A stretch of 64,000 nt of DNA. Origin: Azolla caroliniana (Eukaryota; Plantae; Polypodiophyta). The DNA is taken from NCBI GenBank assembly GCA_043228905.1, contig JBHGNT010000100.1, forward strand, positions 1 to 64,000, in the 5' to 3' direction. The first letter of the stretch is position 1. Each line of letters opens with the position of its first letter. Below, in pieces: positions 41,101 to 64,000 of the stretch. The translations under genes and the position numbers were made by a program. The notes beneath the pieces are model-generated. The model had not been told where the DNA came from. It did not search any database and saw only the letters and a list, made by a program, of their open reading frames with translations.

Positions 41101-44100
41101 GAATATTTTAACACAGAAATCCAATATCACACGAGCCAGGTATGAACCTTTTAATTTACTCAAGGGCTCTTCTCAACTCCATCCTCAAGTTTGCTAATAT
41201 TATTCATGTGTCTCGACCTGAGTTTCAAAATCTTGATTTTTTAATTCTATATCATAGCTAGCGTTGCTAGCTTCGATTCGCATATTTGAACACAGAAATC
41301 CGATATCACACGAGCCAGGTATGAACATTTTAATTTACTCAAGGGCTCTTCTCAACTCCCTCCTCAAGATTGCTAATTTCTTCATATCTCCTGACCTGAG
41401 TTTCAAAATCTTGATTTTTGAATTCTATATCATAGCTAGCGTTGCTAGCTTCGATTCGCATATTTGAACACAGAAATCCGATATCACACGAACCAGGTAT
41501 GAACATTTTAATTTACTCAAGGGCTCCTCTCAACTCCATCCTCAAGTTTGCTAATATTATTCATGTGTCTCGACCTGAGTTTCAAAATCTTGATTTTTGA
41601 ATTCTATATCATAGCTAGCGTTGCTAGCTTCGATTCGAATATTTGAACACAGAAATCCGATATCACACGAGCCAGGTATGAACATTTTAATTTACTCAAG
41701 GGCTCTTCTCAACTCCCTCCTTAAGTTTGCTAATTTCTTCATATCTCCTGACCTGAGTTTCAAAATCTTGATTTTTGAATTCTATATCATAGCTAGCGTT
41801 GCAAGCTTCGATTTGTATATTTGAACACAGAAATCCGATATCACACGAGCTAGGTATGAACATTTTAATTTACTCAAGGGCTCTTCTCAATTCCCTCCTC
41901 ATCTTTGCTAATTTCGTCATGTCTCTCGACCTGAGTTTCAAAATCTTGATTTTTGAATTCTATATCATAGCTCGCGTTGCTAGATTCGATTCGAATATTT
42001 GAACATAAAAATCCGATATCACACGTGCCAGGTATGAACATTTTAATTTACTTAAGGGCTCTTCTCAACTCCCTCCCCAAGTTTGCTAATTTCTTCATAT
42101 CTCCTGACCTGAGTTTCGAAATCTTGATTTTTGAATTCTATAGCATAGCTCGCGTTGCTAGCTTCCATTCGAATATTTTAACACAGAAATCCAATATCAC
42201 ACGAGCCAGGTATGAACCTTTTAATTTACTCAAGGGCTCTTCTCAACTCCCTCCATAAGTTTGCTAATTTCTTCATATCTCCTGACCTGAGTTTCAAAAT
42301 CTTGATTTTTGAATTCTATATCATAGCTCGCGTTGCTAGCTTCGATTCGAATATTTCAACTTCAAAATCCAATATCACACGAGCCAGGTATGAACATTTT
42401 AATTTACTCAAGGGCTCTTCTCAACTCCCTCCTCAAGTTTGCTAATTTCTTCATATCTCCTGACCTGAGTTTCAAAATATTGATTTTCGAATTCTATATC
42501 ATAGCTTGCGTTGCTACCTTCGAATCGCATATTTGAACACAGAAATCCGATATCACACGAGCCAGGTATGAACATTTTAATTTACTCAAGGGCTCTTCTC
42601 AACTCCCTCCTCAAGTTTGCTAATTTCGTCATGTCTCTCGACCTGAGTTTCAAAATCTTGATTTTTGAATTCTATATCATACCTAGCGTTGCTAGCTTCG
42701 ATTCGCATATTTGAACACAGAAATCCGATATCACACGAGCCAGGTATGAACATTTTAATTTACTCAAGGGCTCTTCTCAACTCCCTCCTTAAGTTTGCTA
42801 ATTTCTTCATATCTCCTGACCTGAGTTTCAAAATCTTGATTTTTGAATTCTATATCATAGCTAGCGTTGCTAGCTTCGATTTGTATATTTGAACACAGAA
42901 ATCCGATATCACACGAGCTAGGTATGAACATTTTAATTTACTCAAGGGCTCTTCTCAATTCCCTCCTCATCTTTGCTAATTTCGTCATGTCTCTCGACCT
43001 GAGTTTCAAAATCTTGATTTTTGAATTCTATATCATAGCTCGCGTTGCTAGATTCGATTCGAATATTTGAACATAAAAATCCGATATCACACGTGCCAGG
43101 TATGAACATTTTAATTTACTTAAGGGCTCTTCTCAACTCCCTCCCCAGGTTTGCTAATTTCTTCATATCTCCTGACCTGAGTTTCAAAATCTTGATTTTT
43201 GAATTCTATAGCATAGCTCGCGTTGCTAGCTTCCATTCGAATATTTTAACACAGAAATCCAATATCACACGAGCCAGGTATGAACCTTTTAATTTACTCA
43301 AGGGCTCTTCTCAACTCCCTCCATAAGTTTGTTAATTTCTTCATATCTCCTGACCTGAGTTTCAAAATCTTGATTTTTGAATTCTATATCATAGCTCGCG
43401 TTGCTAGCTTCGATTCGAATATTTCAACTTCAAAATCCAATATCACACGAGCCAGGTATGAACATTTTAATTTACTCAAGGGCTCCTCTCAACTCCATCC
43501 TCAAGTTTGCTAATATTATTCATGTGTCTCGACCTGAGTTTCAAAATCTTGATTTTTGAATTCTATATCATAGCTAGCGTTGCTAGCTTCGATTCGAATA
43601 TTTGAACACAGAAATCCGATATCACACGAGCCAGGTATGAACATTTTAATTTACTCAAGGGCTCTTCTCAACTCCCTCCTCAAGTTTGCTGATTTCTTCA
43701 TATCTCCTGACCTGAGTTTCAAAATCTTGATTTTTGAATTCTATATCATAGCTCGAGTTGCTAGGTTCGATGCGAATATTTGAACTTCAAAATCCGATAT
43801 CACACGAGCCAGGTATGAACATTTTAATTTACTCTAGGGCTCCTCTCAACTCCATCCTCAAGTTTGCTAATATTATTCATGTGTCTCGACCTGAGTTTCA
43901 AAATCTTGATTTTCTAATTCTATATCATAGCTAGCGTTGCTAGCTTCGATTCGCATATTTGAACACAGAAATCCGATATCACACGAGCCAGGTATGAACA
44001 TTTTAATTTACTCAAGGGCTCTTCTCAACTCCCTCCTCAAGATTGCTAATTTCTTCATATCTCCTGACCTGAGTTTCAAAATCTTGATTTTCTAATTCTA

Positions 44101-47100
44101 TATCATACCTAGCGTTGCTACCTTCGATTCGCATATTTGAACACAGAAATCTGATATCACACGAGCCAGGTATGAACATTTTAATTTACTCAAGGGCTCT
44201 TCTCAACTCCCTCCTCAAGTTTGCTAATTTCGTCATGTCTCTCGACCTGAGTTTCAAAATCTTGATTTTTGAATTCTATATGATACCTAGCGTTGCTAGG
44301 TTCGATTCGCATATTTGAACACAGAAATCCGATATCACACGAGCCAGGTATGAACATTTTAATTTACTCAAGGGCTCTTCTCAACTCCCTCCTCAAGTTT
44401 GCTAATTTCTTCATATCTCCTGACCTGAGTTTCAAAATATTGATTTTCGAATTCTATATCATAGCTTGCGTTGCTACCTTCGAATCGCATATTTGAACAC
44501 AGAAATCCGATATCACACGAGCCAGGTATGAACATTTTAATTTACTCAAGGGCTCTTCTCAACTCCATCTTCATCTTTGCTAATTTCGTCATGTCTCTCG
44601 ACCTGAGTTTCAAAATCTTGATTTTTGAATTCTATATCATACCTAGCGTTGCTAGCTTCGATTCGCATATTTGAACACAGAAATCCGATATCACACGAGC
44701 CAGGTATGAACATTTTAATTTACTCAAGGGCTCTTCTCAACTCCCTCCTTAAGTTTGCTAATTTCTTCATATCTCCTGACCTGAGTTTCAAAATCTTGAA
44801 TGTTGAATTCTATATCATACCTAGCGTTGCTACCTTCGATTCGCATATTTGAACACAGAAATCTGATATCACACGAGCCAGGTATGAACATTTTAATTTA
44901 CTCAAGGGCTCTTCTCAACTCCCTCCTCAAGTATTCTAATTTCTTCATATCTCCTGACCTGAGTTTCAAAATCTTGATTTTTGAATTCTATATCATAGCT
45001 CGAGTTGCTAGCTTCGATTCGCATATTTGAACTTCAAAATCGGATATCAGACGAGCCAAGTATGAACATTTTAATTTACTCAAGCGCTCTTCTCAACTCC
45101 ATCCTCATCTTTGCTAATTTCCTCATGTCTCTCGACCTGAGTTTCAAAATCTTGATTTTTTAATTCTATATCATAGCTAGCGTTGCTAGCTTCGATTCGC
45201 ATATTTGAACACAGAAATCCGATATCACACGAGCCAGGTATGAACATTTTAATTTACTCAAGGGCTCTTCTCAACTCCCTCCTCAAGATTGCTAATTTCT
45301 TCATATCTCCTGACCTGAGTTTCAAAATCTTGATTTTTGAATTCTATATCATAGCTAGCGTTGCTAGCTTCGATTCGCATATTTGAACACAGAAATCCGA
45401 TATCACACGAACCAGGTATGAACATTTTAATTTACTCAAGGGCTCCTCTCAACTCCATCCTCAAGTTTGCTAATATTATTCATGTGTCTCGACCTGAGTT
45501 TCAAAATCTTGATTTTTGAATTCTATATCATAGCTAGCGTTGCTAGCTTCGATTCGAATATTTGAACACAGAAATCCGATATCACACGAGCCAGGTATGA
45601 ACATTTTAATTTACTCAAGGGCTCTTCTCAACTCCCTCCTTAAGTTTGCTAATTTCTTCATATCTCCTGACCTGAGTTTCAAAATCTTGATTTTTGAATT
45701 CTATATCATAGCTAGCGTTGCAAGCTTCGATTTGTATATTTGAACACAGAAATCCGATATCACACGAGCTAGGTATGAACATTTTAATTTACTCAAGGGC
45801 TCTTCTCAATTCCCTCCTCATCTTTGCTAATTTCGTCATGTCTCTCGACCTGAGTTTCAAAATCTTGATTTTTTAATTCTATATCATAGCTCGCGTTGCT
45901 AGATTCGATTCGAATATTTGAACATAAAAATCCGATATCACACGTGCCAGGTATGAACATTTTAATTTACTTAAGGGCTCTTCTCAACTCCCTCCCCAAG
46001 TTTGCTAATTTCTTCATATCTCCTGACCTGAGTTTCGAAATCTTGATTTTTGAATTCTATAGCATAGCTCGCGTTGCTAGCTTCCATTCGAATATTTTAA
46101 CACAGAAATCCAATATCACACGAGCCAGGTATGAACCTTTTAATTTACTCAAGGGCTCTTCTCAACTCCCTCCATAAGTTTGCTAATTTCTTCATATCTC
46201 CTGACCTGAGTTTCAAAATCTTGATTTTTGAATTCTATATCATAGCTCGCGTTGCTAGCTTCGATTCGAATATTTCAACTTCAAAATCCAATATCACACG
46301 AGCCAGGTATGAACATTTTAATTTACTCAAGGGCTCTTCTCAACTCCCTCCTTAAGTTTGCTAATTTCTTCATATCTCCTGACCTGAGTTTCAAAATATT
46401 GATTTTCGAATTCTATATCATAGCTTGCGTTGCTACCTTCGAATCGCATATTTGAACACAGAAATCCGATATCACACGAGCCAGGTATGAACATTTTAAT
46501 TTACTCAAGGGCTCTTCACAACTCCCTCCTCAAGTTTGCTAATTTCGTCATGTCTCTCGACCTGAGTTTCAAAATCTTGATTTTTGAATTCTATATCATA
46601 CCTAGCGTTGCTAGCTTCGATTCGCATATTTGAACACAGAAATCCGATATCACACGAGCCAGGTATGAACATTTTAATTTACTCAAGGGCTCTTCTCAAC
46701 TCCCTCCTTAAGTTTGCTAATTTCTTCATATCTCCTGACCTGAGTTTCAAAATCTTGATTTTTGAATTCTATATCATAGCTAGCGTTGCTAGCTTCGATT
46801 TGTATATTTGAACACAGAAATCCGATATCACACGAGCTAGGTATGAACATTTTAATTTACTCAAGGGCTCTTCTCAATTCCCTCCTCATCTTTGCTAATT
46901 TCGTCATGTCTCTCGACCTGAGTTTCAAAATCTTGATTTTTGAATTCTATATCATAGCTCGCGTTGCTAGATTCGATTCGAATATTTGAACATAAAAATC
47001 CGATATCACACGTGCCAGGTATGAACATTTTAATTTACTTAAGGGCTCTTCTCAACTCCCTCCCCAGGTTTGCTAATTTCTTCATATCTCCTGACCTGAG

Positions 47101-50100
47101 TTTCAAAATCTTGATTTTTGAATTCTATAGCATAGCTCGCGTTGCTAGCTTCCATTCGAATATTTTAACACAGAAATCCAATATCACACGAGCCAGGTAT
47201 GAACCTTTTAATTTACTCAAGGGCTCTTCTCAACTCCCTCCATAAGTTTGTTAATTTCTTCATATCTCCTGACCTGAGTTTCAAAATCTTGATTTTTGAA
47301 TTCTATATCATAGCTCGCGTTGCTAGCTTCGATTCGAATATTTCAACTTCAAAATCCAATATCACACGAGCCAGGTATGAACATTTTAATTTACTCAAGG
47401 GCTCCTCTCAACTCCATCCTCAAGTTTGCTAATATTATTCATGTGTCTCGACCTGAGTTTCAAAATCTTGATTTTTGAATTCTATATCATAGCTAGCGTT
47501 GCTAGCTTCGATTCGAATATTTGAACACAGAAATCCGATATCACACGAGCCAGGTATGAACATTTTAATTTACTCAAGGGCTCTTCTCAACTCCCTCCTC
47601 AAGTTTGCTGATTTCTTCATATCTCCTGACCTGAGTTTCAAAATCTTGATTTTTGAATTCTATATCATAGCTCGAGTTGCTAGGTTCGATGCGAATATTT
47701 GAACTTCAAAATCCGATATCACACGAGCCAGGTATGAACATTTTAATTTACTCTAGGGCTCCTCTCAACTCCATCCTCAAGTTTGCTAATATTATTCATG
47801 TGTCTCGACCTGAGTTTCAAAATCTTGATTTTGTAATTCTATATCATAGCTAGCGTTGCTAGCTTCGATTCGCATATTTGAACACAGAAATCCGATATCA
47901 CACGAGCCAGGTATGAACATTTTAATTTACTCAAGGGCTCTTCTCAACTCCCTCCTCAAGATTGCTAATTTCTTCATATCTCCTGACCTGAGTTTCAAAA
48001 TCTTGATTTTCTAATTCTATATCATACCTAGCGTTGCTACCTTCGATTCGCATATTTGAACACAGAAATCTGATATCACACGAGCCAGGTATGAACATTT
48101 TAATTTACTCAAGGGCTCTTCTCAACTCCCTCCTCAAGTTTGCTAATTTCGTCATGTCTCTCGACCTGAGTTTCAAAATCTTGATTTTTGAATTCTATAT
48201 GATACCTAGCGTTGCTAGGTTCGATTCGCATATTTGAACACAGAAATCCGATATCACACGAGCCAGGTATGAACATTTTAATTTACTCAAGGGCTCTTCT
48301 CAACTCCCTCCTCAAGTTTGCTAATTTCTTCATATCTCCTGACCTGAGTTTCAAAATATTGATTTTCGAATTCTATATCATAGCTTGCGTTGCTACCTTC
48401 GAATCGCATATTTGAACACAGAAATCCGATATCACACGAGCCAGGTATGAACATTTTAATTTACTCAAGGGCTCTTCTCAACTCCATCTTCATCTTTGCT
48501 AATTTCGTCATGTCTCTCGACCTGAGTTTCAAAATCTTGATTTTTGAATTCTATATCATACCTAGCGTTGCTAGCTTCGATTCGCATATTTGAACACAGA
48601 AATCCGATATCACACGAGCCAGGTATGAACATTTTAATTTACTCAAGGGCTCTTCTCAACTCCCTCCTTAAGTTTGCTAATTTCTTCATATCTCCTGACC
48701 TGAGTTTCAAAATCTTGATTTTTGAATTCTATATCATAGCTAGCGTTGCTAGCTTCGATTTGTATATTTGAACACAGAAATCCGATATCACACGAGCTAG
48801 GTATGAACATTTTAATTTACTCAAGGGCTCTTCTCAATTCCCTCCTCATCTTTGCTAATTTCGTCATGTCTCTCGACCTGAGTTTCAAAATCTTGATTTT
48901 TGAATTCTATATCATAGCTCGCGTTGCTAGATTCGATTCGAATATTTGAACATAAAAATCCGATATCACACGTGCCAGGTATGAACATTTTAATTTACTT
49001 AAGGGCTCTTCTCAACTCCCTCCCCAAGTTTGCTAATTTCTTCATATCTCCTGACCTGAGTTTCAAAATCTTGATTTTTGAATTCTATAGCATAGCTCGC
49101 GTTGCTAGCTTCCATTCGAATATTTTAACACAGAAATCCAATATCACACGAGCCAGGTATGAACCTTTTAATTTACTCAAGGGCTCTTCTCAACTCCCTC
49201 CATAAGTTTGCTAATTTCTTCATATCTCCTGACCTGAGTTTCAAAATCTTGATTTTTGAATTCTATATCATAGCTCGCGTTGCTAGCTTCGATTCGAATA
49301 TTTCAACTTCAAAATCCAATATCACACGAGCCAGGTATGAACATTTTAATTTACTCAAGGGCTCCTCTCAACTCCATCCTCAAGTTTGCTAATATTATTC
49401 ATGTGTCTCGACCTGAGTTTCAAAATCTTGATTTTTGATTTCTATATCATAGCTAGCGTTGCTAGCTTCGATTCGAATATTTGAACACAGAAATCCGATA
49501 TCACACGAGCCAGGTATGAACATTTTAATTTACTCAAGGGCTCTTCTCAACTCCCTCCTCAAATTTGCTAATTTCTTCATATCTCCTGACCTGAGTTTCA
49601 AAATCTTGATTTTTGAATTCTATATCATAGCTCGAGTTGCTAGGTTCGATGCGAATATTTGAACTTCAAAATCCGATATCACACGAGCCAGGTATGAACA
49701 TTTTAATTTACTCTAGGGCTCTTCTCAACTCCCTCCTCAAATTTGCTAATTTCTTCATATCTCCTGACCTGAGTTTCAAAATCTTGATTTTCTAATTCTA
49801 TATCATACCTAGCGTTGCTACCTTCGATTCGCATATTTGAACACAGAAATCTGATATCACACGAGCCAGGTATGAACATTTTAATTTACTCAAGGGCTCA
49901 TCTTAACTCCCTCCTCAAGTTTGCTAATTTCGTCATGTCTCTCGACCTGAGTTTCAAAATCTTGATTTTTGAATTCTATATCATAGCTAGCGTTGCTAGC
50001 TTCGATTCGCATATTTGAACACAGAAATCCGATATCACACGAGCCAGGTATGAACATTTTAATTTACTCAAGGGCTCTTCTCAACTCCCTCCTCAAGTTT

Positions 50101-51061
50101 GCTAATTTCTTCATATCTCCTGACCTGAGTTTCAAAATCTTGATTTTTGAATTCTATATCATAGCTCGAGTTGCTAGCTTCGATTCGAATATTTGAACTT
50201 CAAAATCCGATATCACACGAGCCAGGTATGAACATTTTAATTTACTCAAGGGCTCCTCTCAACTCCATCCTCAAGTTTGCTAATATTATTCATGTGTCTC
50301 GACCTGAGTTTCAAAATCTTGATTTTTGAATTCTATATCATAGCTAGCGTTGCTAGCTTCGATTCGAATATTTGAACACAGAAATCCGATATCACACGAG
50401 CCAGGTATGAACATTTTAATATACTCAAGGGCTCTTCTCAACTCCCTCCTCAAGTTTGCTAATTTCTTCATATCTCCTGACCTGAGTTTCAAAATCTTGA
50501 ATGTTGAATTCTATATCATACCTAGCGTTGCTACCTTCGATTCGCATATTTGAACACAGAAATCTGATATCACACGAGCCAGGTATGAACATTTTAATTT
50601 ACTCAAGGGCTCTTCTCAACTCCCTCCTCAAGTTTTCTAATTTCTTCATATCTCCTGACCTGAGTTTCAAAATCTTGATTTTTGAATTCTATATCATAGC
50701 TCGAGTTGCTAGCTTCGATTCGCATATTTGAACTTCAAAATCCGATATCAGACGAGCCAAGTATGAACATTTTAATTTACTCAAGCGCTCTTCTCAACTC
50801 CATCCTCATCTTTGCTAATTTCCTCATGTCTCTCGACCTGAGTTTCAAAATCGTGATTTTTGAATTCTATATCATAGCTAGCGTTGCTAGCTTCGATTCG
50901 CATATTTGAACACAGAAATCCGATATCACACGAGCCAGGTATGAACATTTTAATTTACTCAAGGGCTCTTCTCAACTCCCTCCTCAAGTTTGCTAATTTC
51001 TTCATATCTCCTGACCTGAGTTTCAAAATCTTGATTTTTGAATTCTATATCATAGCTTGCG
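17151..51061. repeat. Satellite subfamily A, domain A2 (includes 179-bp variant monomers; 6-, 7-, 11-, 19- and 22-monomer duplications)
   Basis: New marker monomers appear: GATTTGTATATTTG (first ~17574), GAACATAAAAATCCGATATCACACGTGCC (first ~17765) and a 179-bp monomer with GCTAATATTATTCATGTGTCTC (first ~18205). The left boundary is approximate. Confidence 0.8.
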
Positions 51062-52330
51062 CGATTCGCATGTTTGAACACAAAAATCCGATATCACACG
51101 AGCCAGGTATGAACATTTTAATTTACTCAAGGGCTTCTCTCAACTCACTCCTCAAATTTGGTAATTTCGTCATGTCTCGCGACCTGAGTTTCAAAATCTT
51201 GATTTTTTAACTCCATATCATAGGTAGCATTGTTAGCTTCGATTCGCATGTTTGAACACAAAAATCCGATATCACACGAGCCAGGTATGAACATTTTAAT
51301 TTAACTCATAGCTCTTCTTAACTCACTCCTCAAATTTGGTAATTTCGTCATGTCTCTCGACCTGAGTTTGAAAATCTTGATTTTTTAATTCCATATCATA
51401 GCTAGCGTTGTTAGCTTCGATTCGCATGTTTGAACACAAAATTCGGATATCACACGAGCCAGGTATGAACATTTTAATTTACTCAAGGGCTTCTCTCAAC
51501 TCACTCCTCAAATTTGGTAATCTCATCATGTCTCTCGACCTGAGTTTGAAAATCTTGATATTTTAATTCCATATCATAGCTAGCGTTGTTAGCTTCTATT
51601 CGCATGTTTGAACACAAAAATCCGATATCACACGAGCCAGGTATGAACATTTTAATTTAACTCATAGCTCTTCTTAACTCACTCCTCAAATTTAGTAATT
51701 TCGTCATGTCTCTCGACCTGAGTTTGAAAATCTTGATTTTTTAATTCTATATCATAGCTAGCGTTGTTAGCTTCGATTCGCATGTTTGAACACAAAAATC
51801 CGATATCACACGAGCCAGGTATGAACATTTTAATTTAACTCATAGCTCTTCTTAACTCACTCCTCAAATTTGGTATTTTCGTCATGTCTCTCGACCTGAG
51901 TTTCAAAATCTTGATTTTCTAATTCTATATCACAGCTAGTGTTGTTAGCTTCGATTCGCTTGTTTGAACACAAAAATCCGATATCACACGAGCCAGGTAT
52001 GAACATTTTAATTTACTCAAGGGCTTCTCTGAACTCACTCCTCAAATTTAGTAATCTCATCATGTCTTCCGACCTGAGTTTCAAAATCTTGATTTTTTAA
52101 TTCCATATCATAGCTAGCGTTGTTAGCTTCGATTCGCATGTTTGAACACAAAAATCCGATATCACACGAGCCAGGTATGAACATTTTAATTTAACTCATA
52201 GCTCTTCTTAACTCACTCCTCAAATTTGGTAATTTCGTCATGCCTCTCGACCTGAGTTTGAAAATCTTGATTTTCTAATTCTATATCACAGCTAGTGTTG
52301 TTAGCTTCGATTCGCTTGTTTGAACACAAA
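51062..52330. repeat. Satellite subfamily B island (~7 monomers)
   Basis: Carries the B diagnostics GTTGTTAGC, GCATGTTTGAACACAAAAATCC, CACTCCTCAAATTTGGTAAT and GGGCTTCTCTC or TAACTCATAGCTCTTCTT. It starts at a 10-bp deletion (51061/51062) and reverts to A within the invariant block at 52330-52381. Confidence 0.92.
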
Positions 52331-53900
52331 AATCCGATATCACACGAGCCAGGTATGAACATTTTAATTTACTCAAGGGCTCTTCTCAACTCCCTCCTCA
52401 AATTTGCTAATTTCTTCATATCTCCTGACCTGAGTTTCAAAATCTTGATTTTTGAATTCTATATCATAGCTCGAGTTGCTAGGTTCGATGCGAATATTTG
52501 AACTTCAAAATCCGATATCACACGAGCCAGGTATGAACATTTTAATTTACTCTAGGGCTCTTCTCAACTCCCTCCTCAAATTTGCTAATTTCTTCATATC
52601 TCCTGACCTGAGTTTCAAAATCTTGATTTTCTAATTCTATATCATACCTAGCGTTGCTACCTTCGATTCGCATATTTGAACACAGAAATCTGATATCACA
52701 CGAGCCAGGTATGAACATTTTAATTTACTCAAGGGCTCATCTTAACTCCCTCCTCAAGTTTGCTAATTTCGTCATGTCTCTCGACCTGAGTTTCAAAATC
52801 TTGATTTTTGAATTCTATATCATAGCTAGCGTTGCTAGCTTCGATTCGCATATTTGAACACAGAAATCCGATATCACACGAGCCAGGTATGAACATTTTA
52901 ATTTACTCAAGGGCTCTTCTCAACTCCCTCCTCAAGTTTGCTAATTTCTTCATATTTCCTGACCTGAGTTTCAAAATCTTGATTTTTGAATTCTATATCA
53001 TAGCTCGAGTTGCTAGCTTCGATTCGAATATTTGAACTTCAAAATCCGATATCACACGAGCCAGGTATGAACATTTTAATTTACTCAAGGGCTCCTCTCA
53101 ACTCCATCCTCAAGTTTGCTAATATTATTCATGTGTCTCGACCTGAGTTTCAAAATCTTGATTTTTGAATTCTATATCATAGCTAGCGTTGCTAGCTTCG
53201 ATTCGAATATTTGAACACAGAAATCCGATATCACACGAGCCAGGTATGAACATTTTAATATACTCAAGGGCTCTTCTCAACTCCCTCCTCAAGTTTGCTA
53301 ATTTCTTCATATCTCCTGACCTGAGTTTCAAAATCTTGAATGTTGAATTCTATATCATACCTAGCGTTGCTACCTTCGATTCGCATATTTGAACACAGAA
53401 ATCTGATATCACACGAGCCAGGTATGAACATTTTAATTTACTCAAGGGCTCTTCTCAACTCCCTCCTCAAGTTTTCTAATTTCTTCATATCTCCTGACCT
53501 GAGTTTCAAAATCTTGATTTTTGAATTCTATATCATAGCTCGAGTTGCTAGCTTCGATTCGCATATTTGAACTTCAAAATCCGATATCAGACGAGCCAAG
53601 TATGAACATTTTAATTTACTCAAGCGCTCTTCTCAACTCCATCCTCATCTTTGCTAATTTCCTCATGTCTCTCGACCTGAGTTTCAAAATCGTGATTTTT
53701 GAATTCTATATCATAGCTAGCGTTGCTAGCTTCGATTCGCATATTTGAACACAGAAATCCGATATCACACGAGCCAGGTATGAACATTTTAATTTACTCA
53801 AGGGCTCTTCTCAACTCCCTCCTCAAGTTTGCTAATTTCTTCATATCTCCTGACCTGAGTTTCAAAATCTTGATTTTTGAATTCTATATCATAGCTTGCG
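52331..53900. repeat. Satellite subfamily A block, duplicate of ~49492-51061
   Basis: Private variants recur at a 2839-bp offset (GGGCTCATCTT at ~49894 and ~52733; AAAATCGTGAT at ~50847 and ~53686; ORFs 49815/52654 and 50884/53723). Confidence 0.92.
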
Positions 53901-56900
53901 CGATTCGCATGTTTGAACACAAAAATCCGATATCACACGAGCCAGGTATGAACATTTTAATTTACTCAAGGGCTTCTCTCAACTCACTCCTCAAATTTGG
54001 TAATTTCGTCATGTCTCGCGACCTGAGTTTCAAAATCTTGATTTTTTAACTCCATATCATAGGTAGCATTGTTAGCTTCGATTCGCATGTTTGAACACAA
54101 AAATCCGATATCACACGAGCCAGGTATGAACATTTTAATTTAACTCATAGCTCTTCTTAACTCACTCCTCAAATTTGGTAATTTCGTCATGTCTCTCGAC
54201 CTGAGTTTGAAAATCTTGATTTTTTAATTCCATATCATAGCTAGCGTTGTTAGCTTCGATTCGCATGTTTGAACACAAAATTCGGATATCACACGAGCCA
54301 GGTATGAACATTTTAATTTACTCAAGGGCTTCTCTCAACTCACTCCTCAAATTTGGTAATCTCATCATGTCTCTCGACCTGAGTTTGAAAATCTTGATAT
54401 TTTAATTCCATATCATAGCTAGCGTTGTTAGCTTCGATTCGCATGTTTGAACACAAAAATCCGATATCACACGAGCCAGGTATGAACATTTTAATTTAAC
54501 TCATAGCTCTTCTTAACTCACTCCTCAAATTTAGTAATTTCGTCATGTCTCTCGACCTGAGTTTGAAAATCTTGATTTTTTAATTCTATATCATAGCTAG
54601 CGTTGTTAGCTTCGATTCGCATGTTTGAACACAAAAATCCGATATCACACGAGCCAGGTATGAACATTTTAATTTAACTCATAGCTCTTCTTAACTCACT
54701 CCTCAAATTTAGTAATTTCGTCATGTCTCTCGACCTGAGTTTGAAAATCTTGATTTTTTAATTCTATATCATAGCTAGCGTTGTTAGCTTCGATTCGCAT
54801 GTTTGAACACAAAAATCCGATATCACACGAGCCAGGTATGAACATTTTAATTTAACTCATAGCTCTTCTTAACTCACTCCTCAAATTTGGTATTTTCGTC
54901 ATGTCTCTCGACCTGAGTTTCAAAATCTTGATTTTCTAATTCTAAATCACAGCTAGTGTTGTTAGCTTCGATTCGCTTGTTTGAACACAAAAATCCGATA
55001 TCACACGAGCCAGGTATGAACATTTTAATTTACTCAAGGGCTTCTCTGAACTCACTCCTCAAATTTAGTAATCTCATCATGTCTCTCGACCTGAGTTTGA
55101 AAATCTTGATTTTTTAATTCCATATCATAGCTAGCGTTGTTAGCTTCGATTCGCATGTTTGAACACAAAATTCGGATATCACACGAGCCAGGTATGAACA
55201 TTTTAATTTACTCAAGGGCTTCTCTCAACTCACTCCTCAAATTTGGTAATCTCATCATGTCTCTCGACCTGAGTTTGAAAATCTTGATATTTTAATTCCA
55301 TATCATAGCTAGCGTTGTTAGCTTCGATTCGCATGTTTGAACACAAAAATCCGATATCACACGAGCCAGGTATGAACATTTTAATTTAACTCATAGCTCT
55401 TCTTAACTCACTCCTCAAATTTAGTAATTTCGTCATGTCTCTCGACCTGAGTTTGAAAATCTTGATTTTTTAATTCTATATCATAGCTAGCGTTGTTAGC
55501 TTCGATTCGCATGTTTGAACACAAAAATCCGATATCACACGAGCCAGGTATGAACATTTTAATTTAACTCATAGCTCTTCTTAACTCACTCCTCAAATTT
55601 GGTATTTTCGTCATGTCTCTCGACCTGAGTTTCAAAATCTTGATTTTCTAATTCTAAATCACAGCTAGTGTTGTTAGCTTCGATTCGCTTGTTTGAACAC
55701 AAAAATCCGATATCACACGAGCCAGGTATGAACATTTTAATTTACTCAAGGGCTTCTCTGAACTCACTCCTCAAATTTAGTAATCTCATCATGTCTTTCG
55801 ACCTGAGTTTCAAAATCTTGATTTTTTAATTCCATATCATAGCTAGCGTTGTTAGCTTCGATTCGCATGTTTGAACACAAAAATCCGATATCACACGAGC
55901 CAGGTATGAACATTTTAATTTAACTCATAGCTCTTCTTAACTCACTCCTCAAATTTGGTAATTTCGTCATGCCTCTCGACCTGAGTTTGAAAATCTTGAT
56001 TTTTTAATTCCATATCATAGCTAGCGTTGTTAGCTTCGATTCGCATGTTTGAACACAAAAATCCGATATCACACGAGCCAGGTATGAACATTTTAATTTA
56101 CTCAAGGGCTTCTCTCAACTCACTCCTCAAATTTGGTAATTTCGTCATATCTCGCGACCTGAGTTTCAAAATCTTGATTTTTTAACTCCATATCATAGCT
56201 AGCATTGTTAGCTTCGATTCGCATGTTTGAACACAAAAATCCGATATCACACGAGCCAGGTATGAACATTTTAATTTAACTCATAGCTCTTCTTAACTCA
56301 CTCCTCAAATTTGGTAATCTCATCATGTCTCTCGACCTGAGTTTAAAAATCTTGATTTTTTAATTCCATATCATAGCTAGCGTTTTTAGCTTCGATTCGC
56401 ATGTTTGAACACAAAAATCCGATATCACACGAGCCAGGTATGAACATTTTAATTTACTCAAGGGCTTCTCTCAACTCACTCCTCAAATTTGGTAATCTCA
56501 TCATGTCTCTCGACTTGAGTTTGAAAATCTTGATTTTTTAATTCCATATCATAGCTAGCGTTGTTAGCTTCGATTCGCATGTTTGAACACAACAATCCGA
56601 TCTCACACGAGCCAGGTATGAACATTTTAATTTACTCAAGGGCTTCTCTGAAATCACTCCTCAAATTTGGTAATCTCATCATGTCTTTCGACCTGAGTTT
56701 CAAAATCTTGATTTTTTAATTCCATATCATAGCTAGCGTTGTTAGCTTCGATTCGCATGTTTGAACACAAAAATCCGATATCACACGAGCCAGGTATGAA
56801 CATTTTAATTTAACTCATAGCTCTTCTTAACTCACTCCACAAATTTGGTAATTTCGTCATGTCTCTCGACCTGAGTTTGAAAATCTTGATTTTTTAATTC

Positions 56901-59900
56901 CATATCATAGCTAGCGTTGTTAGCTTCGATTCGCATGTTTGAACACAAAATTCGGATATCACACGAGCCAGGTATGAACATTTTAATTTACTCAAGGGCT
57001 TCTCTCAACTCACTCCTCAAATTTGGTAATCTCATCATGACTCTCGACCTGAGTTTGAAAATCTTGATTTTTTAATTCCATATCATAGCTAGCGTTGTTA
57101 GCTTCGATTCGCATGTTTGAACACAAAAATCCGATATCACACGAGCCAGGTATGAACATTTTAATTTAACTCATAGCTCTTCTTAACTCACTCCTCAAAT
57201 TTGGTAATTTCGTCATGTCTCTCGACCTGAGTTTGAAAATCTTGATTTTTTAATTCCATATCATAGCTAGCGTTGTTAGCTTCGATTCGCATGTTTGAAC
57301 ACAAAATTCGGATATCACACGAGCCAGGTATGAACATTTTAATTTACTCAAGGGCTTCTCTCAACTCACTCCTCAAATTTGGTAATTTCGTCATATCTCG
57401 CGACCTGAGTTTCAAAATCTTGATTTTCTAATTCTATATCACAGCTAGTGTTGTTAGCTTCGATTCGCTTGTTTGAACACAAAAATCCGATATCACACGA
57501 GCCAGGTATGAACATTTTAATTTACTCAAGGGCTTCTCTCAACTCACTCCTCAAATTTGGTAATCTCATCATGTCTCTCAACTTGAGTTTGAAAATCTTG
57601 ATTTTTTAATTCCATATCATAGCTAGCGTTGTTAGCTTCGATTCGCATGTTTGAACACAAAAATCCGATATCACACGAGCCAGGTATGAACATTTTAATT
57701 TAACTCATAGCTCTTCTTAACTCACTCCTCAAATTTGGTATTTTCGTCATGTCCCTCGACCTGAGTTTCAAAATCTTGATTTTCTAATTCTATATCATCT
57801 CTAGCGTTGTTAGCTTCGATTCGCATGTTTGAACACAAAAATCCGATATCACACGAGCCAGGTATGTACATTTTAATTTACTCAAGGGCTTCTCTCAACT
57901 CACTCCTCAAATTTGGTAATTTCGTCATATCTCGCGACCTGAGTTTCAAAATCTTGATTTTCTAATTCTATATCACAGCTAGTGTTGTTAGCTTCGATTC
58001 GCTTGTTTGAACACAAAAATCCGATATCACACGAGCCAGGTATGAACATTTTAATTTACTCAAGGGCTTCTCTCAACTCACTCCTCAAATTTGGTAATCT
58101 CATCATGTCTCTCGACTTGAGTTTGAAAATCTTGATTTTTTAATTCCATATCATAGCTAGCGTTGTTAGCTTCGATTCGCATGTTTGAACACAAAAATCC
58201 GATATCACACGAGCCAGGTATGAACATTTTAATTTACTCAAGGGCTTCTCTGAACTCACTCCTCAAATTTGGTAATCTCATCATGTCTTTCGACCTGAGT
58301 TTCAAAATCTTGATTTTTTAATTCCATATCATAGCTAGCGTTGTTAGCTTCGATTCGCATGTTTGAACACAAAAATCCGATATCACACGAGCCAGGTATG
58401 AACATTTTAATTTAACTCATAGCTCTTCTTAACTCACTCCTCAAATTTGGTATTTTCGTCATGTCTCTCGACCTGAGTTTCAAAATCTTGATTTTCTAAT
58501 TCTATATCACAGCTAGTGTTGTTAGCTTCGATTCGCTTGTTTGAACACAAAAATCCGATATCACACGAGCCAGGTATGAACATTTTAATTTACTCAAGGG
58601 CTTCTCTCAACTCACTCCTCAAATTTGGTAATCTCATCATGTCTCTCGACCTGAGTTTGAAAATCTTGATTTTTTAATTCCATATCATAGCTAGCGTTGT
58701 TAGCTTCGATTCGCATGTTTGAACACAAAAATCCGATATCACACGAGCCAGGTATGACCATTTTAATTTAACTCATAGCTCTTCTTAACTCACTCCTCAA
58801 ATTTGGTAATTTCGTCATGTCTCTCGACCTGAGTTTGAAAATCTTGATTTTTTAGTTCTATATGATAGCTAGCGTTGTTAGCTTCGATTCGCATGTTTGA
58901 ACACAAAATTCGGATATCACACGAGCCAGGTATGAACATTTTAATTTACTCAAGGGCTTCTCTGAACTCACTCCTCAAATTTGGTAATCTCATCATGTCT
59001 CTCGACCTGAGTTTGAAAATCGTGATTTTTTAACTCCATATCATAGCTAGCGTTGTTAGCTTCGATTCGCATGTTTGAACACAAAAATCCGATATCACAA
59101 GAGCCAGGTATGAACATTCTAATTTACTCAAGGGCTTCTCTCAACTCACTCCTCAAATTTGGTAATTTCGTCATGTCTCGCGACCTGAGTTTGAAAATCT
59201 TGATTTTTTAATTCCATATCATAGCTAGCGTTGTTAGCTTCGATTCGCATGTTTGAACACAAAAATCCGATATCACACGAGCCAGGTATGAACATTTTAA
59301 TTTACTCAAGGGCTTCTCTGAACTCACTCCTCAAATTTGGTAATCTCATCATGTCTTTCGACCTGAGTTTCAAAATCTTGATTTTTTAATTCCATATCAT
59401 AGCTAGCGTTGTTAGCTTCGATTCGCATGTTTGAACACAAAAATCCGATATCACACGAGCCAGGTATGAACATTTTAATTTAACTCATAGCTCTTCTTAA
59501 CTCACTCCTCAAATTTAGTAATTTCGTCATGTCTCTCGACCTGAGTTTGAAAATCTTGATTTTTTAATTCCATATCATAGCTAGCGTTGTTAGCTTCGAT
59601 TCGCATGTTTGAACACAAAATTCGGATATCACACGAGCCAGGTATGAACATTTTAATTTACTCAAGGGCTTCTCTCAACTCACTCCTCAAATTTGGTAAT
59701 CTCATCATGTCTCTCGACCTGAGTTTGAAAATCTTGATTTTTTAATTCCATATCATAGCTAGCGTTGTTAGCTTCGATTCGCATGTTTGAACACAAAAAT
59801 CCGATATCACACGAGCCAGGTATGAACATTTTAATTTAACTCATAGCTCTTCTTAACTCACTCCTCAAATTTAGTAATTTCGTCATGTCTCTCGACCTGA

Positions 59901-62900
59901 GTTTGAAAATCTTGATTTTTTAATTCTATATCATAGCTAGCGTTGTTAGCTTCGATTCGCATGTTTGAACACAAAAATCCGATATCACACGAGCCAGGTA
60001 TGAACATTTTAATTTACTCAAGGGCTTCTCTGAACTCACTCCTCAAATTTGGTAATCTCATCATGTCTTTCGACCTGAGTTTCAAAATCTTGATTTTTTA
60101 ATTCCATATCATAGCTAGCGTTGTTAGCTTCGATTCGCATGTTTGAACACAAAAATCCGATATCACACGAGCCAGGTATGAACATTTTAATTTACTCAAG
60201 GGCTTCTCTCAACTCACTCCTCAAATTTGGTAATTTCGTCATATCTCGCGACCTGAGTTTCAAAATCTTGATTTTCTAATTCTATATCACAGCTAGTGTT
60301 GTTAGCTTCGATTCGGTTGTTTGAACACAAAAATCCGATATCACACGAGCCAGGTATGAACATTTTAATTTACTCAAGGGCTTCTCTCAACTCACTCCTC
60401 AAATTTGGTAATCTCATCATGTCTCTCGACTTGAGTTTGAAAATCTTGATTTTTTAATTCCATATCATAGCTAGCGTTGTTAGCTTCGATTCGCATGTTT
60501 GAACACAAAAATCCGATATCACACGAGCCAGGTATGAACATTTTAATTTACTCAAGGGCTTCTCTGAACTCACTCCTCAAATTTGGTAATCTCATCATGT
60601 CTTTCGACCTGAGTTTCAAAATCTTGATTTTTTAATTCCATATCATAGCTAGCGTTGTTAGCTTCGATTCGCATGTTTGAACACAAAAATCCGATATCAC
60701 ACGAGCCAGGTATGAACATTTTAATTTACTCAAGGGCTTCTCTCAACTCACTCCTCAAATTTGGTAATTTCGTCATATCTCGCGACCTGAGTTTCAAAAT
60801 CTTGATTTTCTAATTCTATATCACAGCTAGTGTTGTTAGCTTCGATTCGCTTGTTTGAACACAAAAATCCGATATCACACGAGCCAGGTATGAACATTTT
60901 AATTTACTCAAGGGCTTCTCTCAACTCACTCCTCAAATTTGGTAATCTCATCATGTCTCTCGACTTGAGTTTGAAAATCTTGATTTTTTAATTCCATATC
61001 ATAGCTAGCGTTGTTAGCTTCGATTCGCATGTTTGAACACAAAAATCCGATATCACACGAGCCAGGTATGAACATTTTAATTTACTCAAGGGCTTCTCTG
61101 AACTCACTCCTCAAATTTGGTAATCTCATCATGTCTTTCGACCTGAGTTTCAAAATCTTGATTTTTTAACTCCATATCATAGCTAGCATTGTTAGCTTCG
61201 ATTCGCATGTTTGAACACGAAAATCCGATATCACACGAGCCAGGTATGAACATTTTAATTTAACTCATAGCTCTTCTTAACTCACTCCTCAAATTTGGTA
61301 TTTTCGTCATGTCTCTCGACCTGAGTTTCAAAATCTTGATTTTCTAATTCTATATCACAGCTAGTGTTGTTAGCTTCGATTCGCTTGTTTGAACACAAAA
61401 ATCCGATATCACACGAGCCAGGTATGAACATTTTAATTTACTCAAGGGCTTCTCTCAACTCACTCCTCAAATTTGGTAATCTCATCATGTCTCTCGACCT
61501 GAGTTTGAAAATCTTGATTTTTTAATTCCATATCATAGCTAGCGTTGTTAGCTTCGATTCGCATGTTTGAACACAAAAATCCGATATCACACGAGCCAGG
61601 TATGAACATTTTAATTTAACTCATAGCTCTTCTTAACTCACTCCTCAAATTTAGTAATTTCGTCATGTCTCTCGACCTGAGTTTGAAAATCTTGATTTTT
61701 TAATTCCATATCATAGCTAGCGTTGTTAGCTTCGATTCGCATGTTTGAACACAAAATTCGGATATCACACGAGCCAGGTATGAACATTTTAATTTACTCA
61801 AGGGCTTCTCTCAACTCACTCCTCAAATTTGGTAATCTCATCATGTCTCTCGACCTGAGTTTGAAAATCTTGATTTTTTAATTCCATATCATAGCTAGCG
61901 TTGTTAGCTTCGATTCGCATGTTTGAACACAAAAATCCGATATCACACGAGCCAGGTATGAACATTTTAATTTAACTCATAGCTCTTCTTAACTCACTCC
62001 TCAAATTTAGTAATTTCGTCATGTCTCTCGACCTGAGTTTGAAAATCTTGATTTTTTAATTCTATATCATAGCTAGCGTTGTTAGCTTCGATTCGCATGT
62101 TTGAACACAAAAATCCGATATCACACGAGCCAGGTATGAACATTTTAATTTACTCAAGGGCTTCTCTGAACTCACTCCTCAAATTTGGTAATCTCATCAT
62201 GTCTTTCGACCTGAGTTTCAAAATCTTGATTTTTTAATTCCATATCATAGCTAGCGTTGTTAGCTTCGATTCGCATGTTTGAACACAAAAATCCGATATC
62301 ACACGAGCCAGGTATGAACATTTTAATTTACTCAAGGGCTTCTCTCAACTCACTCCTCAAATTTGGTAATTTCGTCATATCTCGCGACCTGAGTTTCAAA
62401 ATCTTGATTTTTTAACTCCATATCATAGCTAGCATTGTTAGCTTCGATTCGCATGTTTGAACACGAAAATCCGATATCACACGAGCCAGGTATGAACATT
62501 TTAATTTAACTCATAGCTCTTCTTAACTCACTCCTCAAATTTGGTATTTTCGTCATGTCTCTCGACCTGAGTTTCAAAATCTTGATTTTCTAATTCTATA
62601 TCACAGCTAGTGTTGTTAGCTTCGATTCGCTTGTTTGAACACAAAAATCCGATATCACACGAGCCAGGTATGAACATTTTAATTAACTCAAGGGCTTCTC
62701 TCAACTCACTCCTCAAATTTGGTAATCTCATCATGTCTCTCGACCTGAGTTTCAAAATCTTGATTTTTTAATTCCATATCATAGCTAGCGTTGTTAGCTT
62801 CGATTCGCATGTTTGAACACAAAAATCCGATATCACACGAGCCAGGTATGAACATTTTAATTTACTCAAGGGCTTCTCTGAACTCACTCCTCAAATTTGG

Positions 62901-63386
62901 TAATCTCATCATGTATTTCGACCTGAGTTTCAAAATCTTGATTTTTTAATTCCATATCATAGCTAGCGTTGTTAGCTTCGATTCGCATGTTTGAACACAA
63001 AAATCCGATATCACACGAGCCAGGTATGAACATTTTAATTTACTCAAGGGCTTCTCTCAACTCACTCCTCAAATTTGGTAATTTCGTCATGTCTCGCGAC
63101 CTGAGTTTCAAAATCTTGATTTTTTAACTCCATATCATAGCTAGCATTGTTAGCTTCGATTCGCATGTTTGAACACAAAAATCCGATATCACACGAGCCA
63201 AGTATGAACATTTTAATTTACTCAAGGGCTTCTCTCAACTCACTCCTCAATTTTGGTAATTTCGTCATGTCATATCATAGCTAGCATTGTTAGCTTCGAT
63301 TCGCATGTTTGAACACAAAAATCCGATATCACACGAGCCAGGTATGAACATTTTAATTTAACTCATAGCTCTTCTTAACTCACTCC
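53901..63386. repeat. Satellite subfamily B domain (~53 monomers)
   Basis: B diagnostics throughout, with two interspersed monomer types (TACTCAAGGGCTTCTCTC and TAACTCATAGCTCTTCTT). B lacks the GAATTC (EcoRI) site common in A. Confidence 0.95.
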
Positions 63387-63457
63387 TGTCATAACTAGAC
63401 TCGAACCCATAACCTTTTGTTACACGGGTCGAGACTTTACCATTAGGTTATGAATTG
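63387..63457 (-). other. Degenerate tRNA-like unit with Pol III A box and B box at the U3 end of the LTR
   Basis: The minus strand reads CAATTCA-TAACCTAATGGTAAAGT-CTCGACCCGTGTAACAAA-AGGTT-ATGGGTTCGAGTCTAGT-TATGACA. An A-box-like TAACCTAATGG lies at 63450-63440 and a B box GGTTCGAGTCT at 63407-63397, with tRNA-canonical spacing. Acceptor and anticodon stems do not pair, so it is not a functional tRNA. Confidence 0.6.
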
Positions 63458-63509
63458 TAATTTGAAGGATATTATTTTCATTTAGGTTTTATTGGGAAAT
63501 TGATGTATA

Positions 63510-63557
63510 TTCCAGATTTCTCTGGAACATTCTAGAAACTTCAGGAGTATTCCTGAA
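63510..63557. promoter_or_regulatory. Heat-shock element array (alternating nGAAn/nTTCn, 10 in-phase units)
   Basis: TTC-ca-GAT-tt-CTC-tg-GAA-ca-TTC-ta-GAA-ac-TTC-ag-GAG-ta-TTC-ct-GAA: 7 of 10 units are perfect, including four consecutive perfect units at 63525-63542. This matches the established HSF binding consensus. Confidence 0.78.
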
Positions 63558-63562
63558 GACAC

Positions 63563-63570
63563 TGTAAAAG
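63563..63570 (+). promoter_or_regulatory. TATA-like box of the LTR promoter
   Basis: TGTAAAAG (one mismatch to TATAAAAG) lies just downstream of the HSE array and ~30 bp upstream of the transcription start predicted independently from the self-primer (63596). Confidence 0.55.
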
Positions 63571-63595
63571 GAGGCGCAAGGCATTAGTTCGAACC

Positions 63596-63607
63596 AAATC
63601 GGTTCAA
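63596..63607 (+). other. Predicted self-primer (5' end of the transcript, start of R)
   Basis: AAATCGGTTCAA is the exact reverse complement of TTGAACCGATTT at 63854-63865. Confidence 0.75.
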
Positions 63608-63676
63608 CGCCAGTCTTAAGCCTTCTAACTACTGTTGTATATCTTCCGTCATATAATACATATATCTTTCGCATCA

Positions 63677-63680
<4 letters not shown>

Positions 63681-63718
<38 letters not shown>
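63681..63718. repeat. (TC)19 microsatellite within the LTR
   Basis: Perfect 38-bp TC dinucleotide run. Confidence 0.98.
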
Positions 63719-63722
<4 letters not shown>

Positions 63723-63752
63723 ATTCCTTCTCTCAAAGTTCGACACCTCTCA

Positions 63753-63819
63753 TAGTACTAATCGTTCTCTGTCTTAGTACTATTCCCCAACAATAGTACT
63801 AATCCTTCTTTTAGTACTA
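63753..63819. repeat. Four copies of the palindrome TAGTACTA in the U5 part of the LTR
   Basis: TAGTACTA at 63753, 63775, 63794 and 63812 (spacing 22, 19, 18 bp), each followed by a short pyrimidine-rich stretch. Confidence 0.9.
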
Positions 63820-63853
63820 ATTCCTTCTCTGCCTTAATAGAGTTCCTGACAGT

Positions 63854-63865
63854 TTGAACCGATTT
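63854..63865 (+). other. Primer binding site, self-priming type
   Basis: Begins 2 nt after the LTR end (TGACA-GT-TTGAACCGATTT). It lacks the TGG start expected for pairing with a tRNA CCA end and is complementary to 63596-63607. Confidence 0.75.
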
Positions 63866-63939
63866 TGACTACTAGTCTCCCTCTTCCTTCTGTCTCCCTC
63901 CTTTCCTACTAGTCTCTTATTTCCCTTTTCCTTCATCCC

Positions 63940-64000
63940 ATGGCCACCGTTAGCGCTGAAGAGTATCAATCCGTTTTCTCGGAATTTCAATGCTTGAAAG
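63940..64000 (+). CDS. Probable gag/gag-pol N-terminus, truncated by the window edge (MATVSAEEYQSVFSEFQCLK...)
   Basis: First ATG after the PBS and leader, context CCCATGG, with 20 open codons to the window end. The product is inferred from position only. Confidence 0.5.
   Translation, partial: MATVSAEEYQSVFSEFQCLK

What the first reader, a model, noticed from the sequence alone, without database searches (positions are those of the whole stretch)
63510..63570. Unusually long heat-shock element array abutting the LTR TATA-like box
Ten in-phase alternating GAA/TTC units (7 perfect) span 48 bp, with three further 2-of-3 matches in phase upstream (63495-63507). They appear as inverted repeats TTCCAGA/TCTGGAA, TTCTAGAA and CTTCAGGA/TCCTGAAG. 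HSF trimers need only three units, and HSE-bearing LTRs drive heat activation of Arabidopsis ONSEN (Copia). Inference: a heat-inducible Gypsy-type element residing in a centromere-like satellite, able to trigger stress-dependent transcription or transposition there.
Basis: partly seen in the sequence, partly recalled or inferred. Interest (0 to 1): 0.75.

Follow-up and report, generated by a model that had tools for sequence, protein, structure and literature searches.

The report
Heat-shock promoters across a chromovirus clade
The array is a real run of heat-shock-factor binding motifs in the promoter of a very young plant jumping-gene family with hundreds of copies, shared by five sister families, so these elements are likely switched on by heat or similar stress as Arabidopsis ONSEN is; they do not home to the satellite, and this copy's own TATA box is mutated.

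Summary
The array is real: ten in-phase GAA/TTC units (7 perfect) at 63510-63557; 0 of 20,000 shuffles reach 5. It sits in U3 of the 5' LTR (63387-63851) of an intact 5,764-bp Tcn1-type chromovirus, 5 bp before the TATA position and 38-86 bp before a predicted start fixed by a self-primer/PBS pair. The exact 48-mer occurs 532 times in the genome. Five sister families carry different arrays at the same place, where it is the only U3 stretch aligning with this family; a sister lineage has none. Host sHSP promoters carry the same motif. Heat induction is inferred, not shown: no RNA evidence, and conservation within the lineage is not significant. Precedents: ONSEN, flatworm Ty3 elements, Cryptococcus TCN3/TCN12. 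The scan noted HSE-rich LTRs before in another genome (yeast copia). Side findings: antisense Pol III boxes conserved in U3, and a hypervariable junction behind the PBS. New member of a known kind.

The parts
1..63386 (.). 178-bp satellite array into which the element inserted; continues beyond the element to the end of the 90.6-kb contig
63382..63386 (+). 5-bp target-site duplication ACTCC (second copy follows the 3' LTR at contig position 69151)
63387..63851 (+). 5' LTR, 465 bp, TG...CA with 5-bp terminal inverted repeat; differs from its 3' LTR (contig 68686-69150) at 5 positions
63398..63444 (-). tRNA-like RNA polymerase III boxes on the minus strand, pointing out of the LTR: A-box-like 63439-63444, B-box 63398-63406; conserved in sister families with and without HSE; function inferred only
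63495..63507 (+). three weak 2-of-3 units in phase with the array; probably not functional on their own
63510..63557 (+). heat-shock element array, 10 phased nGAAn units, 7 perfect; perfect four-unit core at 63525-63542
63563..63570 (+). TATA position, 33 bases before the predicted start; TGTAAAAG here, TATAAAAG in 157 of 158 LTRs
63596..63607 (+). predicted transcript 5' end and 12-nt self-primer, complementary to the PBS
   Evidence: (I4)
63681..63722 (+). (TC)21 run in R/U5, length-variable between copies
63854..63865 (+). primer-binding site for self-priming, 2 bases after the LTR; no tRNA-Met type PBS
63866..63872 (+). junction behind the PBS that is hypervariable between copies
63940..64000 (+). 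start of gag (389 aa; pol follows outside the window in an overlapping frame, open for 1,203 codons)

Best explanation
The 48-bp array is the upstream enhancer of the LTR promoter of a young, genome-wide family of self-priming Tcn1-type chromoviruses, and it likely binds host heat-shock factors so that heat or a related stress would switch on the full-length transcript. Shown: the array, its place (-86 to -38 from the predicted start, TATA at -33), the intact element, the recent burst, arrays at the same place in five sister families, host HSF genes and HSE-bearing sHSP promoters. Inferred: two to three HSF trimers bind the array; Pol II starts at 63596, so that the first 12 bases pair with the PBS and prime reverse transcription as in Tf1; new copies integrate all over the genome, occasionally in the satellite. 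The copy in the window is likely a weakened passenger, since its 5' TATA reads TGTAAA, while its 3' LTR keeps array and TATA and faces at least 21 kb of satellite.
For: Not chance. Fixed geometry: TATA at -32/-33 from the self-primer in every family where both were found (-37 in one decayed copy), arrays ending between -38 and -60. Self-primer and PBS change together across five sequence types; fold z = -6.3 with the 12-bp helix. Between this family and families B, C and D the only U3 stretch that blastn aligns is the array. Samples not chosen by the motif: 24 of 25 older copies found by Gag keep 4 or more perfect phased units; 18 of 18 family E copies found with the Gag of an HSE-less relative carry arrays; the two closest of 79 metagenome loci (76-78% identity) carry different arrays of 7/8 and 5/6. 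Five perfect units in a row occur 1,066 times in the genome against 3 for the reversed control; the examined hits are mostly LTRs of these families. Host has 10 HSF DNA-binding-domain matches; 12 of 20 sHSP loci examined (of 33 found) have 3-5 perfect units 570-700 bp upstream of the HSP20 domain. Literature: all A. lyrata ONSENs with a 4P element were heat-induced (PMC5059998, passages); HSFA2 binds the ONSEN element (PMC3907296, passages); HSE mutation abolishes induction of a flatworm Ty3 LTR (PMC12801592, passages).
Against: No expression or binding data. Within the young family the array is not significantly more conserved than the rest of the LTR (4 of 48 vs 50 of 367 variable positions, p = 0.22), and in 25 older copies core bases (0.93) are no more conserved than spacer bases (0.94) or upstream U3 (0.91, p = 0.22). 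Two of six flatworm families with a canonical HSE were not induced. Unlike ONSEN this U3 has 5 CG and 6-7 CHG sites per strand, 4 CHG per strand inside the array, so methylation could keep it silent. P. patens RLG1, a moss chromovirus, is repressed by heat (PMC7466625, passages). Family G, also young, has only three-unit elements. The loci were picked by the HSE pattern and are not independent support for its frequency.
Confidence: 0.75

Rival explanations
1. The array is an HSF site used under a stress other than heat (drying and rewetting, oxidative stress) or by a repressive class B HSF that restrains the element.
For: The one host HSF first exon I read resembles class B by recall (no test). 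Sister lineage F/H carries CATGC- and G-box-like repeats at the same place, so stress motifs seem exchangeable here. P. patens RLG2 responds to ABA as well as heat.
Against: Perfect four-unit elements next to TATA match the heat-induced type in ONSEN and TERESTRA and the host's sHSP promoters.
Confidence: 0.12
2. The phased units are a neutral 10-bp-periodic U3 repeat made by slippage and inherited by the clade, with no present function.
For: Families B, C, D have arrays built from near-identical 10-bp units of variable number; no significant excess conservation within the lineage; lineage F persisted without it.
Against: The array stays just upstream of TATA in six families whose U3s otherwise do not align; in this family the spacers differ from unit to unit while the phase holds; the repeated unit is exactly the HSE consensus.
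Confidence: 0.1
3. One reading: a satellite-resident element whose 5' LTR triggers stress-dependent transposition in the centromere.
For: The copy has intact gag and pol and a chromodomain with the aromatic cage residues; 8 copies lie in the satellite, up to three times the lowest expectation.
Against: About 97% of copies lie elsewhere (2 of 80 fetched loci touch the satellite; 8 genome-wide); expectation 2.7-8.9; this 5' LTR alone has TGTAAA; centromeric identity of the satellite is untested.
Confidence: 0.05

Closest known systems
ONSEN/COPIA78, TERESTRA, COPIA37, ROMANIAT5 of Brassicaceae (PMC3907296, PMC5059998 passages; PMC13602373 abstract)
   Same: LTR with a perfect run of four nGAAn units (4P type); young copies with identical LTRs.
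   Different: Those are Ty1/copia, few copies (8 full-length ONSEN in Col-0), arrays of 4-6 units, mostly species-specific gains; the ONSEN promoter lacks CG and CHG. Here Ty3/gypsy, about 266 near-identical copies, 10 units, arrays across six families, CG and CHG present; induction not tested.
HSE-bearing Ty3/Mdg4 elements of Macrostomum lignano (Mag, CsRN1, Gmr1/Osvaldo; PMC12801592 passages)
   Same: Ty3/gypsy LTRs with canonical HSEs upstream of the start site; shows that such LTRs can be heat-driven.
   Different: Animal, non-chromovirus clades, independent gains; tested by RNA-seq and reporter.
Cryptococcus TCN3 and TCN12 (PMC12810828 passages)
   Same: Ty3/gypsy with putative HSEs in the LTR, 5-bp TSD, mobilised at 37 C; nearest precedent among fungal Tcn elements.
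   Different: One or two putative HSEs, centromere-restricted, two copies; Hsf1 role untested there too. Relationship to this clade not tested.
Plant chromovirus clade Tcn1 / Tf1-sushi group (PMC6317226 passages and supplement row; PMC2864245 passages; bioRxiv 2022.12.06.519325 passages)
   Same: 5-bp TSD, 5.8 kb, overlapping gag and pol, chromodomain with aromatic cage, self-priming PBS.
   Different: HSE arrays in this clade were not found in my searches; P. patens RLG1 is heat-repressed, RLG2 heat- and ABA-induced, with no motif reported in the passages seen.
Helenus TRIMs (PMC10886601 abstract, part 2 of 6, passages)
   Same: tRNA-like box A and box B inside an LTR.
   Different: Helenus is non-autonomous and thought to be transcribed from these boxes; here the boxes are antisense, in an autonomous Pol II element. 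The paper says that not a few Repbase LTRs hold tRNA-like parts, so this may not be unique.

Membership tests
Canonical 4P heat-shock element | four or more adjacent alternating nGAAn units | tested here: met
   63525-63542 perfect block inside a 10-unit run
Canonical 4P heat-shock element | lies upstream of a TATA/start site | tested here: met
   -86 to -38, TATA position -33, start predicted from the self-primer
Canonical 4P heat-shock element | bound by HSF | not testable with these tools
   host HSF genes present; no binding data
Heat-activated LTR retrotransposon (ONSEN-like) | heat-induced transcript and extrachromosomal cDNA | not testable with these tools
   no RNA run with a heat treatment was available
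Heat-activated LTR retrotransposon (ONSEN-like) | promoter free of CG and CHG (ONSEN-specific) | tested here: not met
   U3 has 5 CG and 6-7 CHG per strand
ONSEN/COPIA78 family itself | Ty1/copia domain order | tested here: not met
   RT-RNase H-integrase-chromodomain order
Chromovirus Tcn1 (REXdb) | gypsy domain order with C-terminal chromodomain and aromatic cage | tested here: met
   (Y, W, Y align with HP1-family cages)
Chromovirus Tcn1 (REXdb) | self-priming: at least 10 bp of LTR complementary to a site 0-5 bp after the 5' LTR | tested here: met
   12 bp, 2 bp after the LTR, co-varying across families
Chromovirus Tcn1 (REXdb) | 5-bp TSD, 5.5-9.4 kb, overlapping gag/pol | tested here: met
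   68 of 71 two-LTR copies with matching 5-bp TSD, 5.73-5.81 kb; overlap; criteria
Chromovirus Tcn1 (REXdb) | RT phylogeny groups with reference Tcn1 elements | not tested
   no named Tcn1 reference was returned
Centromere-targeting retrotransposon (CRM, RLC5 type) | copies concentrated in centromeric repeat | tested here: not met
   8 of about 266 in the satellite
Helenus TRIM | non-autonomous, no coding region | tested here: not met
   full gag and pol

The most novel reading that the evidence does not exclude
A whole plant chromovirus clade runs on a modular LTR: an outward-facing Pol III box pair that acts as a TFIIIC barrier, then an exchangeable stress cassette (HSE array in six families, RY/G-box-like repeats in the sister lineage), then TATA and self-primer. 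The newest burst of about 270 copies followed an extension of the HSE array, making it a natural heat-driven mass amplification, and 3' LTRs lodged in the satellite, as here, make heat-induced satellite RNA.
Probability: 0.15. Interest if true: 0.72.

Novelty: new member of a known kind. Interest (0 to 1): 0.42.

Why it matters
Heat-switched retrotransposons are validated in Brassicaceae copia elements and in one flatworm, and ONSEN stays at low copy number. If confirmed, this would extend the mechanism to plant Ty3/gypsy chromoviruses, as a clade-wide trait and in a family that really amplified (about 266 copies, most with identical LTRs). It would place hundreds of strong heat-responsive promoters across one genome. 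The HSE-less sister lineage and the natural TATA variant in this copy give built-in controls.

Tried and rejected
Expression: no RNA holder listed; the four runs laid are contigs of uncertain type and say nothing on heat. Selection on the array within the family: the first count included 6 unclassified, partly misaligned LTRs; without them the difference is not significant; older copies give no core-over-spacer excess. Direction of change: the RT-RNase H tree nests the HSE-less lineage among HSE-bearing families (98/99), but a tree holding the HSE-bearing rows together is not rejected (p-AU 0.12), so loss versus a single gain is open; the Gag tree was unresolved. Satellite targeting rejected; clustering of the 8 insertion points within the monomer is borderline (Rayleigh p = 0.07). 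miRNA-like Rfam matches over the arrays are far below gathering score and reflect the palindromes. No tRNA gene called in U3 and no conserved cloverleaf. Distant metagenome and IMG/VR relatives (38-59% identity) show no run of 4 or more perfect units among the 79 metagenome loci scanned, but most lack a full LTR, so this is weak; the 10 IMG/VR loci were not scanned for HSEs. Cluster look-up gave no organism names for close relatives. Host lineage is inferred only: plant-type HSF genes and Tcn1-type elements point to a non-seed plant.

Full report
Observation. The window is a 178-bp satellite from 1 to about 63386, then an LTR. The array is as described: units at 63510+5k read TTC GAT CTC GAA TTC GAA TTC GAG TTC GAA, 7 perfect of 10 over 48 bp, with a perfect four-unit block at 63525-63542. 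In 20,000 dinucleotide shuffles of the LTR none reached 5 perfect units and 7 reached 4; the satellite and the element interior reach 2. The three upstream 2-of-3 units are there but carry little information.

The element. The neighbouring DNA completes a 5,764-bp element, contig positions 63387-69150, with 465-bp LTRs, TSD ACTCC, a polypurine tract, a 389-aa Gag and an overlapping pol frame open for 1,203 codons with RT, RNase H, integrase, SH3 and chromodomain. There is no tRNA-type PBS. Instead 63854-63865 is the exact complement of LTR bases 63596-63607, and the predicted 5' leader folds with that helix (z = -6.3). In sister families both sides change together (five sequence types) and TATA lies 32-33 bases before the primer. 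This meets the self-priming criterion of Neumann et al. (PMC6317226, passages) and every Tcn1 feature in their table: 5-bp TSD, 5.5-9.4 kb, overlapping ORFs, chromodomain (supplement row). Placement on a tree with reference Tcn1 elements was not possible. The primer fixes the predicted start at 63596, so the array lies at -86 to -38 and TATA at -33. The host has 10 HSF-domain matches, most breaking at the position of the plant intron; a non-seed plant is inferred from the Tcn1 distribution.

The family. The exact 48-mer occurs 532 times, about 266 elements; all 150 listed RT matches are 100% identical. I fetched 80 loci (20, 60 of the 150). Of 71 with both LTRs, 48 have identical LTRs, 20 differ by one base, 2 by two, and the window copy by five; 68 of 71 have matching TSDs; 72 of 77 have an intact pol frame. 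149 of 158 LTRs carry the exact array. This is a very recent, dispersed burst.

Is the array under selection? Within the lineage this is not shown: 4 of 48 array positions vary against 50 of 367 elsewhere (p = 0.22, 152 LTRs after dropping 6 unclassified ones), and in 25 older copies chosen by Gag alone (30 loci, 2 dropped as not aligned, 3 as young copies) core bases are no more conserved than spacers, although 24 of 25 keep four or more perfect units. None of these 25 has both TATA-proximal units (63550, 63555) perfect, so the long form is a recent extension in the family that burst. Across families the case is stronger. Five perfect units in a row occur 1,066 times against 3 for the control. 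The 40 loci fetched from those hits are mostly LTRs of related families B, C, D, G and older A types; they were chosen by the motif. Independent of the motif, the Gag of an HSE-less relative retrieved family E, 18 of 18 with arrays, and family F, 0 of 12, and the two closest of 79 metagenome loci carry different arrays while the next two (70%, 59%) carry none. Families share 74-85% RT-RNase H identity with this one; the only part of U3 that aligns between A and B, C or D is the array. F and H have CATGC- and G-box-like repeats in its place. The tree nests F/H among HSE families but the alternative is not rejected (p-AU 0.12). Host sHSP loci carry the same motif, 3-5 perfect units in 12 of 20 examined, none as long as this array.

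This copy and the satellite. 157 of 158 LTRs have TATAAA; this 5' LTR has TGTAAA, the sequence used as a mutant TATA box in altered-specificity TBP work (PMC10005294, passage; that wild-type TBP uses it poorly is recalled). An assembly error cannot be excluded. The 3' LTR keeps array and TATA and faces satellite to the contig end, so heat-driven satellite RNA is conceivable but untested. Pattern searches in both orientations find 8 copies in the satellite (a lower bound, exact motif needed), 7 with intact TATA. The satellite is at least 1% of the assembly (29,500 motif hits) and up to about 3%, giving 2.7-8.9 expected. There is no clear targeting. The listed satellite hits lie at contig starts; centromeric identity is untested.

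Mechanism. Likely: HSF trimers bind the array under heat, Pol II starts at the self-primer, the first 12 bases pair with the PBS and prime cDNA as in Tf1 (bioRxiv 2022.12.06.519325, passages), and integrase spreads copies genome-wide. A correct start is essential in self-priming elements; S. pombe Tf2 shifts to it under heat (PMC5341516, passages). No binding or expression evidence exists here. CG and CHG sites in U3 could allow silencing that ONSEN avoids.

Known systems and novelty. HSE-driven LTRs are validated for ONSEN (PMC3907296, PMC5059998 passages; PMC13602373 abstract) and flatworm Ty3 elements (PMC12801592 passages), and proposed for Cryptococcus TCN3 and TCN12 (PMC12810828 passages). 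In P. patens RLG1 is heat-repressed and RLG2 heat-induced (PMC7466625 passages). Four searches listed no paper on HSE arrays in plant chromoviruses; the library lacks most subscription journals. It works like ONSEN but is not a member of that family. Verdict: new member of a known kind, made more interesting by clade-wide conservation, a natural negative control and a real burst; interest 0.42.

Side findings. The minus strand of 63398-63444 holds an A-box-like and a B-box motif at tRNA spacing, pointing out of the LTR; 17 alignment columns are invariant across 8 LTRs of 7 groups, the pair is found in 27 of 30 older A, 18 of 18 E and 10 of 12 F loci, in 0 of 20 interior windows and 5 of 20,000 shuffles; stems are not conserved, which suits a DNA-level TFIIIC site. 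The pattern missed the LTR of the one family C locus tested. Behind the invariant PBS, 77 copies show 45 different junctions, against 5 variants in 78 copies on the PPT side; I infer untemplated additions when plus-strand synthesis runs off the primer's 5' end, in line with the strong template-independent synthesis of Tf1 RT (PMC3035444, passage); family E is nearly uniform there (14 of 16), so it is not universal. Two searches listed no description of such a genomic scar.

Noticed in passing
window 63398-63444, minus strand; L219, L306, L312, L031, L032, L318, L308 LTR 5' ends: Outward-facing tRNA-like Pol III A and B boxes conserved at the 5' end of U3 in HSE-bearing and HSE-less families although the rest of U3 does not align; possible TFIIIC barrier or antisense Pol III promoter in an autonomous element.
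   Followed up: partly
window 63866-63872 and 77 family copies: Hypervariable junction directly behind the invariant self-priming PBS (45 variants in 77 copies; PPT side 5 in 78); likely scar of untemplated addition at the primer's 5' end.
   Followed up: partly
L031, L256-L267, L308, L318 U3: HSE-less sister lineage carries 2-3 GCCAA(A/G)TGG-type and 2-12 CATGC repeats just before TATA, resembling G-box and RY elements (names recalled); possible ABA/desiccation cassette.
   Followed up: partly
L011:2098 (contig 65097) and 9 sister loci: Conserved GTTAAAC heptamer just before the gag stop, where pol overlaps in the -1 frame; candidate ribosomal frameshift site. Not found by the pattern in B/D loci or L033.
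   Followed up: partly
L323-L330: Eight insertions in the satellite; five fall within about 22 bases of the 178-bp monomer (Rayleigh p = 0.07).
   Followed up: partly
window 1-63386; G000 C1, C2 starts; C16 near 0.2-0.3 Mb: 178-bp satellite of at least 5 Mb with divergent variants between arrays, seen at starts of large contigs; my one search gave no description of it.
   Followed up: no
window 63131-63387: A shortened 140-bp monomer lies just before the insertion; similar 137-bp units occur downstream of the element.
   Followed up: no
L029 (C2:12.25 Mb), C12:18.91 Mb, L030: Tandem and nested arrangements of family copies with shared or duplicated LTRs.
   Followed up: no
G000 C9:17.9-18.3 Mb: Cluster of about 16 sHSP genes, many with HSEs about 600 bp upstream of the HSP20 domain.
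   Followed up: no
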